A DNA stretch of 64,000 nt from NCBI RefSeq assembly GCF_057098645.1, contig NZ_CM169472.1; one strand, written 5' to 3'. The position numbers are program-made. Below, one piece after another: positions 15,001 through 18,000 of the stretch. Every line of letters starts with the position of its first letter. The first letter of the stretch is position 1.

Positions 15001-18000
15001 TAATCAGTTCAAACAGACGGTGAGTTTCACGGGAGGAGAGGGCAGCGGTGGGTTCGTCCATCACCAGAATGCGGCTGTTGCGATGCAGCGCGCGGGCGAT
15101 TTCGACCTGCTGTTGCTCGGCAATGGTCAGCATCATGACTTTATCGCTGGCGTTAAACTGCGCGCCGAGGCGGTCGATCACTCTTTGCGCCTGCACCAGC
15201 ATCTCTTTACGCTGCACCAGCCCGCCGTGGGAAAGCTCGCTACCGAGAAAAATATTTTCTGCCACCGTCAAATTGGGTGCCAGCTGCATCTCCTGATAAA
15301 TCAGCGTAATACCGGCACTTAAGGCATCTTTTGGCGTGCGAATGTGAAAGGGCTTGCCGTCTATGAGGATCTCGCCGCTGGTGGCGGTATACGCCCCCGC
15401 CAGCACCTTCATCAGCGTGCTTTTTCCCGCGCCGTTTTCCCCCATCAGGGCATGGATCTCGCCAGGGTAGACCGTCAAATCCACCCCTTTGAGCGCATAA
15501 AATTTGCCGAAGGCTTTGGCAATATTGCGCATCTCCAGAACTGGCCTGCTGTTCATGGTGGACTCCTGCGAGGTTGTCGATATCAGCACTCCATCACAGG
15601 AAAGTAAATGCAAAATGTCAGAAGCCGTTCATATTTGTCATATTGCGATTTTTCTTCACGGAGCGTGATATGGCGCACCCCGGACGTCACTTTTTTGCCA
15701 GCGCGCGCGGGCGATTGCTGCTTTTGAATTTGCTGGTGGTGGCGGTGACGTTGATGGTCAGCGGCGTGGCGGTAATGGGCTTTCGTCATGCCAGCCAGAT
15801 GCAGGAGCTGGTGCAGCAGCAAACGGTGGATGATATGACCGGCAGCCTGAATCTGGCGCGCGACACGGCAAACGTGGCAACGGCGGCGGTGCGATTGTCG
15901 CAGGTGGTGGGAGCGCTGGAATATAAAGGCGAAGCCGAGCGGTTGCAGGAGACACAGCGGGCATTAAAAAGCTCGCTTGCACAACTGGCGAACGCGCCTT
16001 TAGCGCAGCAGGAAGCCGGGCTGGTGACGCGCATCATCACGCGTAGCAACGAACTGCAAACCAGCGTCGGCGGTATGCTGGAGCGCGGGCAAAGGCGGCA
16101 TCTGGAGCGCAACGCGCTGTTAAGTTCGCTGTATCAAAACTTAAGTTATCTGCGGCATCTGCAAAAAGTCACTCACGCGCAAGATGATATTTTGCTTAAC
16201 GAGATGAACCGACTAATTGTTGCCGCTATTGCCACCCCCGCGCCGCAGGCGATTATTCATCAACTGGTCGGGGTAATGTCTGCGTTGCCGACCCACAGCG
16301 ATACGCCATTGGTTAATACGTTACTCAATGATTTCAATGATGAAATGCGTAAACTCGCGCCGCTTTCTGCCGCTCTGGAGCAAAGCGATCTGGCAATCAG
16401 CTGGTATATGTTTCACATCAAAGCGCTGGTGGCGATCCTCAATGGCGACATCAACCGTTACGCCGAACAGGTGGCGACGCTCTCCGGTCAGCGTGTGGCG
16501 CAAAGTTACCAGGATTTGCGCTCCGGCGAGAGGGTGATCATGATTTTCGCCCTGTTAGCGGTGGTGATCACCGCGTTTGCCGGCTGGTATATCTATCGCA
16601 ACCTCGGCACTAACCTGACGGCGATTTCCCGCGCCATGAGCCGCCTGGCGCACGGCGAAGCGGACGTCACTTTTCCGGCGTTACAGCGGCGTGATGAGTT
16701 GGGTGAACTGGCGCGCGCCTTTAACGTTTTTGCCCGCAATACCGAGTCACTCGAACGAACCTCACGGCTGCTAAAAGAGAAGACCACGCAGATGGAGATT
16801 GCCCAAACTGAGCGGCAGGGGTTGGAAGAGGCGCTATTACACAGCCAGAAACTGAAAGCGGTCGGGCAACTGACGGGCGGGCTGGCCCATGATTTTAATA
16901 ATCTGCTGGCGGTGATTATTGGCAGCCTGGAGCTGGTGAATCCGGACTCGCCAGACGCGCCGCGAATACAGCGGGCGCTGCAAGCTGCCGAACGTGGGGC
17001 GCTACTGACACAACGACTGCTGGCGTTTTCCCGCAAGCAGTCCTTACATCCGCAAGCCGTTGAACTGAAAACATTGCTGGAAGAGTTAAGCGAATTAATG
17101 CGCCACTCCTTACCGGCAACGCTGGCGCTGGAGATTGAAGCGCAGTCTCCGGCGTGGCCCGCGTGGATTGACATCAGCCAACTGGAAAATGCCATCATCA
17201 ACCTGGTGATGAACGCCCGTGACGCGATGGAAGGGCAGACGGGAATCATCAAAATTCGTACCTGGAATCAGCGCGTTACTCGCAGCAGTGGGCAGCGTCA
17301 GGACATGGTGGCACTGGAGGTCATCGATCATGGCAGCGGTATGTCGCAGGCGGTGAAAAGCCAGGTATTTGAGCCATTCTTTACCACCAAACAGACGGGC
17401 AGCGGCAGCGGGCTGGGGTTGTCGATGGTCTATGGTTTTGTGCGCCAGTCCGGTGGGCGCGTTGAAATTGAAAGCGCGCCGGGGCAGGGGACAACGGTCA
17501 GATTACAGCTTCCCCGCGCGCTGACGGCGGCGAAAAACCTATCGCCAGCGGCAGTAGAACAGGCTTCTGTCAGCGGCGATAAACTGGTGTTAGTGCTGGA
17601 AGATGAAGCCGCGGTGCGCCAGACCATCTGCGAACAGTTGCACCTGCTGGGCTATTTGACGCTGGAAGCAAGCAGCGGCGAACAGGCGCTGGATCTGCTG
17701 GCGGCATCAGCAGAAATCGATATTTTTATCAGCGATTTAATGCTCCCCGGCGGCATGAGCGGCGCAGAAGTGGTCAATGCGGCCCGCAAACTTTACCCGC
17801 ACCTGACGCTGCTACTCATCAGCGGTCAGGATTTACGCCCCAGCCATAACCCCGCGCTGCCAGACGTGGCGCTGTTGCGCAAACCCTTTACCCGTGCGCA
17901 GTTGGCGCAGGCGCTGGGGCAAATTGAGGGATGATTTTCAGAATTTATCAAGAGGCCTGAAGCAAATGTGCTGCTATTGTGAGCAATTCTGTTCTGAATG

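What the first reader, a model, noticed from the sequence alone, without database searches (positions are those of the whole stretch)
15670..17934. Hybrid sensor kinase with no HPt domain, separated from its likely partner regulator by the whole transporter operon
The kinase ends directly after its receiver domain (no HPt sequence follows). The only response regulator in the island (8790..9497) is about 6 kb away on the other side of the operon. Phosphorelay from a hybrid kinase to an OmpR-type regulator normally needs an HPt module (as in TorS or ArcB), so either a trans-acting HPt protein is borrowed, the receiver is a phosphate sink with direct HisKA-to-regulator transfer, or the two are not partners.
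Basis: partly seen in the sequence, partly recalled or inferred. Interest (0 to 1): 0.6.

Follow-up and report, generated by a model that had tools for sequence, protein, structure and literature searches.

The report
Known EHEC kinase RbfS/LmvK, no HPt
This is the already published mannose/riboflavin-sensing two-component system RbfS-RbfR (LmvK-LmvR) of pathogenic E. coli; the sensor does carry an extra receiver domain and no HPt module, and how phosphate reaches the regulator is a small question that two papers answer differently.

Summary
ORF 15670..17934 (+) encodes a 754-aa membrane kinase with TM, helical sensor, TM, HAMP, HisKA (H407), HATPase_c and receiver (D689). It ends 5 residues after the receiver match and has no HPt. 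The window is EHEC chromosome, 100% identical to O145:H28.

The locus is genomic island OI-167, which is published. The kinase is Z5692 = RbfS = LmvK. The regulator at 8790..9497 is Z5684 = RbfR = LmvR. The genes between them are lmuKAIZYX, a mannose/lyxose ABC transporter plus isomerase, aldolase and kinase. Partnership is established by in-vitro phosphotransfer (PMC9860305), by H410A/D54Q genetics, and by an LmvR footprint that I located at 15629..15643 (PMC10128022).

The HPt question is also in print. Yang 2023 draws "an unknown Hpt", while Liu 2022 shows transfer with two purified proteins.

My comparative work covered 26 orthologous loci and more distant relatives. The kinase-regulator-sugar-transporter module travels as a unit, and no family member or neighbourhood carries an HPt. 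The receiver's catalytic residues are invariant. One more distant, non-hybrid relative sits next to a related regulator.

The best reading is VirA/VirG-like: direct His-to-Asp transfer with the receiver as an internal modulator or sink. Already known; modest interest.

The parts
15670..17934 (+). rbfS / lmvK (Z5692): HPt-less hybrid sensor histidine kinase, 754 aa in this O145-type allele
   Evidence: ORF and translation; Pfam domains; PGAP annotation of the 100% identical record; published as RbfS (PMC9860305) and LmvK (PMC10128022).
15781..16533 (+). Periplasmic sensor domain (aa about 38-288), all-helical and of the TorS/McpS/PilJ helical-bimodule type
   Evidence: AF2 model of aa 1-363 has mean pLDDT 87. 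Best Foldseek PDB matches are PilJ 7zjr, TorS sensor 3i9y (target TM 0.71), TorS-TorT 3o1h and McpS 2yfa, with marginal E about 1e-3. One distant family member hits Pfam TorS_sensor_domain at 4.8e-7.
16594..16743 (+). HAMP domain (aa 309-358)
   Evidence: Pfam PF00672, E 4.3e-9.
16864..17043 (+). HisKA/DHp domain (aa 399-458). The phospho-His is H407 (codon 16888-16890), which is H410 in O157 numbering
   Evidence: Pfam PF00512. The H-box GGLAHDFNNLL was located. H410A is loss-of-function (PMC10128022). The numbering offset of 3 is explained by a 9-nt indel in O157 alleles.
17170..17517 (+). HATPase_c catalytic domain (aa 501-616)
   Evidence: Pfam PF02518, E 1.9e-21. The closest solved kinase core is CckA 5idj, E 4e-40.
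17587..17916 (+). C-terminal receiver domain (aa 640-749). The phospho-acceptor is D689 (codon 17734-17736), which is D692 in O157 numbering. No HPt follows
   Evidence: Pfam PF00072, E 1.9e-10. The acidic pair, D689, S/T and K are conserved in all 26 orthologues. D692 has never been mutated in either paper.
15629..15643 (-). LmvR/RbfR binding site, the perfect direct repeat ATATGA-CAA-ATATGA, in the 113-bp lmuX-rbfS intergenic region
   Evidence: It is the only perfect match in the 64 kb. It corresponds to the footprint at -41..-62 of the lmuX promoter (PMC10128022).
14036..15556 (-). lmuX, sugar ABC transporter ATPase
   Evidence: NCBIfam AraG/XylG/RbsA-like; annotation.
13065..14039 (-). 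lmuY, ABC permease
   Evidence: NCBIfam RbsC-like.
12105..13046 (-). lmuZ, RbsB-type periplasmic sugar-binding protein and candidate co-sensor
   Evidence: NCBIfam RbsB 1.1e-43 and a weak TorT match of 5.7e-11. It is 81-99% identical across the close orthologous loci (49-53% in Oceanobacter and Vibrio), the most conserved protein of the module.
11367..12050 (-). lmuI (Z5688), D-lyxose/D-mannose isomerase
   Evidence: NCBIfam NF051472 scores 438 bits, above the cut-off of 350.
10492..11352 (-). lmuA, ketose-1,6-bisphosphate aldolase
   Evidence: NCBIfam NF005284 scores 573 bits, above the cut-off of 406.
9494..10495 (-). lmuK, PfkB-family sugar kinase
   Evidence: NCBIfam PfkB-family hits; fructose kinase activity reported (PMC10128022).
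8790..9497 (+). rbfR / lmvR (Z5684), OmpR/PhoB-family response regulator with D54 as phospho-acceptor
   Evidence: NCBIfam OmpR, VirG and PhoB hits; D54 located; 40% identical to VirG; D54Q is loss-of-function.

Best explanation
The locus is the horizontally acquired OI-167 module of EHEC. RbfS/LmvK is a membrane kinase with a TorS-like helical periplasmic sensor and a CckA/VirA-type transmitter that carries a C-terminal receiver but no HPt. A periplasmic signal is perceived: mannose or lyxose, possibly through the binding protein LmuZ, and riboflavin according to one paper. The kinase then autophosphorylates on H407 (H410 in O157 numbering). It passes the phosphoryl group directly to D54 of RbfR/LmvR. 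RbfR~P binds the ATATGA-N3-ATATGA box at 15629-15643 to switch on lmuXYZIAK, and it binds a related site at the ler promoter to raise LEE expression. The kinase's own receiver (D689) is not an obligatory relay step. It is a tethered competing acceptor or autoinhibitory module that tunes output, as in VirA, CrbS and RsbK. What is shown: domain architecture, partnership, operon control and in-vitro transfer. What is inferred: that direct transfer is the physiological route, that the receiver is modulatory, and that LmuZ takes part in sensing.
For: (1) Architecture without HPt. (2) Purified Z5692 plus Z5684 alone give RR phosphorylation and loss of label on the kinase (PMC9860305). (3) rbfSR alone on a plasmid confers the response on C. 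rodentium and on O26, O111 and O103 strains. (4) In 26 orthologous loci from about 15 genera the module is inherited as a unit. Every kinase ends 10-25 residues after the receiver K-P motif. No other gene family is conserved in the neighbourhoods, and no HPt-like ORF was found. (5) 0 of 25 family members hit Pfam Hpt, and the neighbourhoods with precomputed Pfam show no Hpt gene. (6) In distant relatives the OmpR-type regulator gene abuts or overlaps the hybrid kinase gene (L031, L033, L059, L061). (7) A non-hybrid relative of 604 aa with no receiver lies beside a regulator 42% identical to RbfR, so this lineage can signal without the receiver. (8) RbfS aligns with VirA from the DHp through the receiver to the C-terminus at 28% identity, RbfR is 40% identical to VirG, and virA and virG are likewise split by the operon they control. 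(9) Published precedents exist for an inhibitory or dispensable receiver in HPt-less hybrids.
Against: The receiver's catalytic residues are invariant down to 36% identity. It is therefore a working phospho-acceptor under selection, which a relay step would also require. The in-vitro assay used a 10-fold excess of regulator, a single condition, and no H-to-A, D-to-A or receiver-deletion controls that I could see. It did not distinguish His~P from Asp~P on the kinase, and the SI was not available. Yang et al. explicitly model 'an unknown Hpt'. Every host of the module has ArcB, BarA or RcsD-type HPt domains (established knowledge), so heterologous function does not exclude borrowing. The closest solved kinase core, CckA, is an obligate relay kinase. 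The non-hybrid relative is distant, at about 27% identity in the sensor.
Confidence: 0.6

Rival explanations
1. Four-step phosphorelay: H407 to D689 in the kinase's own receiver, then to a histidine on an HPt domain supplied in trans by the host (ArcB, BarA, EvgS, TorS or RcsD, or an unrecognised protein), then to D54 of RbfR. This is the model drawn by Yang et al. 2023.
For: The receiver is intact and its catalytic residues are invariant. The closest solved core is CckA, which relays through ChpT. RcsC/RcsD shows that E. coli can run a relay with the HPt on a separate protein (cited in PMC10128022). All hosts of the module are gammaproteobacteria, which generally carry ArcB and BarA HPt domains (for the taxa; the HPt content is established knowledge, not tested here).
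Against: Two purified proteins suffice in vitro. No HPt gene or ChpT-like gene co-travels with the module in 26 loci or in the wider family. The 64-kb window encodes none. A mobile module that depends on an unlinked host protein would be fragile, yet it has spread across many genera. A non-hybrid relative exists. Analogous systems turned out not to need the receiver.
Confidence: 0.22
2. The receiver acts positively without relaying. Phosphorylation of D689, or docking of the receiver on the DHp or on RbfR, allosterically enhances kinase output or recruits the regulator, as reported for the VirA receiver under some conditions. Transfer to RbfR is still direct.
For: The VirA receiver has both negative and positive effects (PMC4030172). 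The receiver is strongly conserved.
Against: There are no data for RbfS. This reading cannot be distinguished computationally from the sink model. Most characterised cases are inhibitory.
Confidence: 0.13
3. The kinase and the island regulator are not partners; each works with something else.
For: Only the 6-kb separation and the lack of similarity between the two receivers.
Against: In-vitro transfer, matching deletion phenotypes and H410A/D54Q genetics. The regulator's binding site sits 27 bp upstream of the kinase start codon. The two genes are co-inherited in every complete orthologous locus and are adjacent in distant relatives.
Confidence: 0.02

Closest known systems
RbfS/RbfR = LmvK/LmvR with lmuKAIZYX, island OI-167 of E. 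coli O157:H7 and O145:H28 (Liu et al. PNAS 2022, PMC9860305; Yang et al. mBio 2023, PMC10128022)
   Same: It is this locus. The sequence is 100% identical to O145:H28 chromosomes and 99.4% to O157:H7. Gene order is the same, the position between yjcS and yjdP is the same, and the LmvR box is the same.
   Different: Nothing essential. The window carries the O145-type allele, which is 3 aa shorter than the O157 allele, so H410/D692 become H407/D689.
VirA / VirG / ChvE of Agrobacterium Ti plasmids
   Same: A membrane kinase with a periplasmic domain, a kinase core with the H-box AH(D/E)FNN, and a C-terminal receiver with no HPt. Identity is 28% from the DHp to the C-terminus. The partner is an OmpR-family regulator that is 40% identical. 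The kinase and regulator genes are separated by the operon they regulate. There is a link to an RbsB-class sugar-binding protein of an ABC transporter (PMC4030172).
   Different: It scores below the NCBIfam VirA-like cut-off (218 vs 647 bits). The linker is a HAMP domain, not the phenol-sensing GAF-like linker. The sensor is a TorS-like helical bimodule. A role for LmuZ in sensing is untested.
TorS / TorT / TorR of E. coli
   Same: A helical double-bundle periplasmic sensor followed by HAMP. The partner is an OmpR-family regulator. An RbsB-fold periplasmic binding protein is encoded alongside, and in wider family members a binding-protein gene is translationally coupled to the kinase or regulator gene.
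   Different: TorS carries its own HPt and RbfS does not. The score is far below the TorS cut-off (138 vs 676 bits). The transmitter belongs to a different HisKA subgroup.
CrbS/CrbR (Vibrio, Pseudomonas) and RsbK/RsbY (Bacillus cereus)
   Same: Hybrid kinases with a receiver and no HPt, in which deleting the receiver or mutating its Asp does not block signalling and in fact raises it. This gave rise to the 'phosphate sink' or inhibitory-receiver reading (PMC5436829, PMC4574943).
   Different: Their sensors and regulators are unrelated. The equivalent mutants have not been made for RbfS.
CckA-ChpT-CtrA and RcsC-RcsD-RcsB
   Same: HPt-less hybrid kinases. The CckA kinase core is the closest solved structure (5idj, E 4e-40).
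   Different: They depend on a dedicated phosphotransferase (ChpT or RcsD). No such gene accompanies this module. CckA model scores are far below cut-off (302 vs 1000 bits).

Membership tests
RbfS/LmvK-RbfR/LmvR (OI-167) locus | Sequence identity with the published EHEC island between yjcS and yjdP | tested here: met
   100% identity over 9.3 kb to O145:H28 and 99.4% to O157:H7. The flanking genes yjcS and yjdP/phn are present.
RbfS/LmvK-RbfR/LmvR (OI-167) locus | LmvR footprint ATATGA-N3-ATATGA in the lmuX promoter | tested here: met
   A single perfect match lies at 15629-15643 (-).
HPt-less hybrid histidine kinase | HisKA with conserved His, plus HATPase_c, plus a receiver with an acceptor Asp, all in one polypeptide | tested here: met
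   Pfam domains. H407 and D689 were located. The acidic pair, D, S/T and K are conserved in 26 orthologues.
HPt-less hybrid histidine kinase | No Hpt (PF01627) domain in the protein | tested here: met
   No Hpt hit at E <= 10. Only 5 residues follow the receiver. 0 of 25 family members carry Hpt.
TorS (NCBIfam TIGR02956 / PRK11466) | Score above the curated cut-off | tested here: not met
   137.7 bits vs 676.5, and 81.9 vs 982.
TorS (NCBIfam TIGR02956 / PRK11466) | C-terminal HPt domain | tested here: not met
   Absent.
TorS (NCBIfam TIGR02956 / PRK11466) | TorS-type helical sensor domain | tested here: inconclusive
   Structural match to 3i9y and 3o1h has probability 1.0 but E about 1e-3 and target TM 0.47-0.71. 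PilJ and McpS match equally well. The Pfam TorS_sensor_domain model hits only 1 of 25 relatives and not RbfS itself.
VirA-like sensor kinase (NCBIfam NF010411) | Score above the curated cut-off | tested here: not met
   218.2 bits vs 647; 28% identity to pTiC58 VirA.
VirA-like sensor kinase (NCBIfam NF010411) | Kinase plus C-terminal receiver, no HPt, and a VirG-like OmpR-family partner | tested here: met
   The alignment runs to both C-termini. RbfR is 40% identical to VirG.
VirA-like sensor kinase (NCBIfam NF010411) | Receiver dispensable or inhibitory, with direct His-to-Asp transfer to the regulator | not testable with these tools
   This needs D689A or receiver-deletion mutants. The only evidence is the published two-protein assay.
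CckA (NCBIfam NF046020 / NF046026) | Score above cut-off and a ChpT-type phosphotransferase partner | tested here: not met
   301.9 and 246.7 bits vs 1000. No conserved extra gene is present in 25 neighbourhoods.

The most novel reading that the evidence does not exclude
The receiver of RbfS is an obligatory relay step, and the mobile OI-167 module plugs into a conserved host HPt domain (for example that of ArcB or BarA) in every genus it enters. This would make island signalling conditional on a core-genome kinase. As pure speculation, a dependence on ArcB might relate to the reported oxygen requirement of LmvK/LmvR function.
Probability: 0.12. Interest if true: 0.6.

Novelty: already known. 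Interest (0 to 1): 0.3.

Why it matters
RbfSR/LmvKR raises type III secretion and gut colonisation in the most dangerous EHEC serotypes, so its wiring is relevant to virulence control and to anti-virulence targeting. The route of phosphate from H407 to RbfR and the function of the kinase's own receiver are unresolved: one paper shows direct transfer and another assumes an unknown HPt. Neither group mutated D692. The comparative data here argue for a self-contained system and give a simple, decisive experiment. These data are a portable module with no HPt anywhere in the family, binding-protein genes coupled to kinase or regulator genes in relatives, and a TorS-like sensor. They also suggest that the sugar signal may be read through the binding protein LmuZ, which bears on the unexplained 'mannose versus riboflavin' dual-ligand claim. 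None of this changes the classification: the finding itself is a rediscovery.

Tried and rejected
(1) Truncated HPt. I suspected that RbfS had lost an HPt because many sensor-domain homologues are about 115 aa longer. This was rejected. The extra length is a PAS_7 domain inserted between HAMP and HisKA, and all of these proteins end right after the receiver.

(2) HPt in the neighbourhoods. phmmer with ArcB and BarA HPt sequences and an H-x-[LIVMF]-[KRH]-[GS] motif scan over all ORFs of at least 60 aa in the window and 25 loci gave no credible hit. The ArcB sequence was checked against 1A0B. This is an insensitive test, because HPt domains are very diverse. The clustering of neighbourhood ORFs is the stronger negative.

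(3) Covariation between DHp and regulator helix 1. This was not feasible, because the DHp is almost invariant across the enterobacterial orthologues.

(4) Similarity between the kinase's receiver and RbfR's receiver, which VirA and VirG are said to share. BLASTP found no alignment.

(5) A second LmvR box upstream of rbfR. Only 3-mismatch hits in AT-rich DNA were found, which is uninformative.

(6) Promoter and terminator scans around the kinase gene showed nothing useful.

(7) The supplementary methods of the PNAS paper, needed to see which RbfS construct was used, are not held. The AtsR/AtsT paper is not held either.

(8) A fused-chain AF2 model of DHp plus RbfR was considered and dropped. 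The tool returns no coordinates or PAE, and any kinase-regulator pair would dock canonically.
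Full report
OBSERVATION.

The ORF from ATG 15670 to the stop at 17934 on the + strand encodes 754 aa. Pfam finds HAMP (309-358), HisKA (399-458), HATPase_c (501-616) and Response_reg (640-749), and no Hpt. Two hydrophobic segments (about 15-37 and 289-309) bracket a periplasmic domain of about 250 residues. The H-box is GGLAHDFNNLL with H407. The receiver has the acidic pair (E-D), the acceptor D689 in ISDLMLPG, S in LLISG and K in LRKPF.

The protein stops 5 residues after the receiver match. 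Only 140 nt separate the stop from a GNAT pseudogene remnant and then yjdP. No HPt can be hidden there by a frameshift.

The regulator at 8790..9497 is a 235-aa OmpR/PhoB-type protein with D54. One addition is needed: the intervening operon is not only a transporter. It encodes an ABC ATPase, a permease, an RbsB-type binding protein, a D-lyxose/D-mannose isomerase (438 bits, above cut-off), a ketose-1,6-bisphosphate aldolase (573 bits, above cut-off) and a PfkB kinase.

IDENTITY.

The 9.3-kb stretch is 100% identical to E. coli O145:H28 chromosomes and is present in 421 of 5,426 complete E. coli genomes, always on the chromosome. It lies between yjcS and yjdP/phn. A literature search on the O157 locus tags retrieved two full studies and a review.

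- Liu et al. (PNAS 2022, PMC9860305) named Z5692/Z5684 RbfS/RbfR. They showed riboflavin-enhanced autophosphorylation of purified Z5692 and transfer to purified Z5684 at HK:RR 1:10, and they footprinted RbfR on the ler promoter.
- Yang et al. (mBio 2023, PMC10128022) named the same genes LmvK/LmvR and the operon lmuKAIZYX. They described LmvK explicitly as a hybrid kinase with H410 and D692. They showed that H410A and D54Q lose function, that mannose and lyxose induce the operon through the pair, and that LmvR protects an ATATGA-N3-ATATGA repeat in the lmuX promoter.
- I find that repeat once in the window, perfect, at 15629-15643 on the minus strand, 27 bp upstream of the kinase start codon.
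- The constant offset of three residues between my numbering and theirs is explained by a 9-nt insertion in O157 alleles relative to the O145-type allele in this window.
- The 2024 FEMS review lists the REC domain of RbfS.

The legend of Yang's Figure 8 says LmvK transphosphorylates LmvR 'via an unknown Hpt', with dashed arrows. Liu's paper never mentions the receiver or an HPt and reports direct transfer. Neither paper cites the other's signal. Neither mutated D692.

COMPARATIVE ANALYSIS (my own work).

Homologues of the sensor. A search of 1.84 billion representative proteins with the sensor plus HAMP (aa 1-375) found 30 hits below 1e-30. Many full-length homologues are about 870 aa. I first suspected a lost HPt. 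The extra length is in fact a PAS_7 domain between HAMP and HisKA, and these proteins all end just after the receiver.

Orthologous loci. A scan of one genome per species returned 22 loci with a full-length sensor match. They come from Citrobacter, Leclercia, Enterobacter, Pseudescherichia, Phytobacter, Kosakonia, Cedecea, Serratia, Pantoea, Pluralibacter, Acerihabitans, Tolumonas, Oceanobacter and Vibrio penaeicida. Together with four metagenomic or isolate contigs, this gives 26 loci.

- In all the closer orthologous loci whose contig is long enough, the same module is present in the same order and orientation: regulator, (kinase, aldolase, isomerase), binding protein, permease, ATPase, then the divergent hybrid kinase. 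A few loci lack lmuK and lmuA.
- Every kinase ends 10-25 residues after the receiver K-P motif.
- The receiver's catalytic residues are invariant down to 36% identity.
- Clustering of all ORFs of at least 60 aa from 25 loci plus the window found no conserved family other than the eight module genes, their antisense shadow ORFs and flanking fdhF.
- None of 25 family members hits Pfam Hpt.
- None of the neighbourhoods with precomputed Pfam annotation contains an Hpt gene.
- The rest of the 64-kb window encodes only well-known genes, including the classical pairs PmrAB and DcuSR.

More distant relatives.

- In Oceanobacter and V. penaeicida the regulator gene lies immediately upstream of the hybrid kinase gene, and an RbsB-type binding-protein gene follows.
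- In L059 the regulator and kinase genes overlap.
- In L061 the order is kinase, binding protein (overlapping the kinase stop), regulator, next to sugar ABC transporters.
- In L060 a second binding-protein gene overlaps the regulator gene.
- One distant relative, P0258 (604 aa), has no receiver at all. It sits beside an OmpR-type regulator that is 42% identical to RbfR.

SENSOR AND TRANSMITTER.

An AF2 model of residues 1-363 (mean pLDDT 87) is a long all-helical bundle. Its best PDB matches are the helical-bimodule sensors PilJ, TorS (3i9y with target TM 0.71, and the TorS-TorT complex 3o1h) and McpS. E-values are marginal, at about 1e-3.

The transmitter half is of a different lineage from TorS. 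The best NCBIfam models are PRK13557, CckA and VirA-like, all below their cut-offs. The closest solved core is CckA 5idj.

I fetched pTiC58 to compare directly.

- RbfS aligns with VirA at 28% identity from the DHp through the receiver to both C-termini.
- RbfR is 40% identical to VirG over its full length.
- virA and virG are themselves separated by the 11-gene virB operon that they regulate.

The 'odd' gene arrangement and the HPt-less receiver therefore both have a textbook precedent. In VirA, His474 phosphorylates VirG directly, the receiver modulates output, and a sugar-binding protein (ChvE) of an ABC transporter feeds into the periplasmic domain (PMC4030172). CrbS/CrbR and RsbK/RsbY are further HPt-less hybrids in which removing the receiver does not block signalling and instead raises it.

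MECHANISM.

I commit to direct H407-to-D54 transfer, with the tethered receiver acting as a competing acceptor or autoinhibitor (confidence about 0.6). A further 0.13 goes to a positive allosteric role for the receiver, still with direct transfer.

In favour:
- the two-protein in-vitro assay;
- the portability of rbfSR alone;
- a module that moves between genera with no accompanying phosphotransferase;
- kinase-regulator adjacency in relatives;
- a receiver-less relative;
- the VirA/VirG homology.

Against:
- the receiver is a conserved, apparently competent acceptor;
- the in-vitro assay is minimal;
- all hosts possess HPt domains in ArcB, BarA or RcsD (established knowledge, not tested here);
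- the closest solved core (CckA) is an obligate relay kinase.

The borrowed-HPt relay keeps about 0.22. 'Not partners' is refuted.

A secondary inference concerns sensing. It rests on the TorS-like sensor, on LmuZ being the most conserved module protein (81-99% in the close loci against 59-83% for the kinase there), and on the binding-protein genes coupled to kinase or regulator genes in relatives. From these I infer that the sugar signal may be read through the binding protein, as in TorT-TorS or ChvE-VirA. This is untested. It sits uneasily with the claim that riboflavin acts directly on purified RbfS.

VERDICT.

The finding is real, correctly described and already published, including the open HPt question. 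It is not anomalous for its kinase lineage. Interest is modest (0.3). The useful residue is a cheap decisive experiment (D692A or receiver deletion, HPt histidine mutants, proper phosphotransfer kinetics) and the binding-protein co-sensor hypothesis.

Noticed in passing
window 16744-16863 (HAMP to HisKA linker); loci L018, L021-L026, L028, L030, L035, L005, L006, L008: Many orthologues (Serratia, Pantoea, Kosakonia, Cedecea, Tolumonas and others) carry a PAS_7 domain of about 95-105 aa between HAMP and HisKA (HAMP-to-His distance 152-172 aa). The E. coli, Citrobacter, Leclercia, Pseudescherichia, Phytobacter and Pluralibacter alleles have a clean deletion of it (distance 65 aa). A cytoplasmic input has apparently been lost in the EHEC form. 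No consequence is known.
   Followed up: partly
window 15670-17934 vs O157:H7 records: O157:H7 alleles are 9 nt (3 aa) longer than this O145-type allele and 99.4% identical. This explains the published numbering H410/D692 against H407/D689 here.
   Followed up: yes
window 8700-18000; The island is not confined to O157:H7, O145:H28 and O55:H7 as stated in PMC9860305. Copies at 93-99% identity occur in non-EHEC E. coli (chicken-meat strain GF66.1, goat strain R32_14_1F, clinical strain 14EC033 with a 4.6-Mb genome), in cryptic Escherichia clades, in E. ruysiae and E. marmotae, and in Shigella boydii.
   Followed up: partly
window 12105-13046 (lmuZ) and 13065-14039 (lmuY): The binding protein and permease are much more conserved across genera (81-99% amino-acid identity, even where the kinase sensor is only 29% identical, as in L008) than the kinase, the regulator or the catabolic enzymes. 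This fits a second, constrained role for LmuZ such as docking on the kinase, but it could simply reflect transporter constraint.
   Followed up: partly
window 15629-15643 vs the published ler site TCTCACATAATTTATATCATT: The two papers report seemingly different binding sites. Read on the other strand, the lmuX box is TCATAT-TTG-TCATAT, and the ler footprint contains TCACAT-AAT-TTATAT. That is the same direct repeat with two mismatches, so the two studies agree on the recognition element. This rests on inspection of the sequences only.
   Followed up: partly
literature on this locus (PMC9860305, PMC10128022): Two groups assign different ligands to the same kinase: riboflavin, and mannose or lyxose. 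Neither mentions the other's ligand. Only one did a phosphotransfer assay. Neither tested the binding protein LmuZ or the receiver Asp.
   Followed up: partly
window 18075-18278 (+): A GNAT acetyltransferase pseudogene fragment lies between rbfS and yjdP. In Citrobacter freundii the same module is followed by an intact allose (als) operon and rpiB before yjdP (L002), whereas in EHEC the island replaces the als locus. The fragment is probably a scar of the insertion or replacement.
   Followed up: no
L033 (Vibrio penaeicida) 9143-16520; L060; L061: Distant relatives encode two RbsB-type binding proteins. One is in the ABC transporter and one is directly coupled to the hybrid kinase or the regulator gene, which looks like a dedicated TorT-like co-sensor. 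This 'HPt-less hybrid kinase + binding protein + OmpR-type regulator + sugar ABC transporter' cassette appears widespread in Proteobacteria. As far as I could see it is not described as a class.
   Followed up: partly
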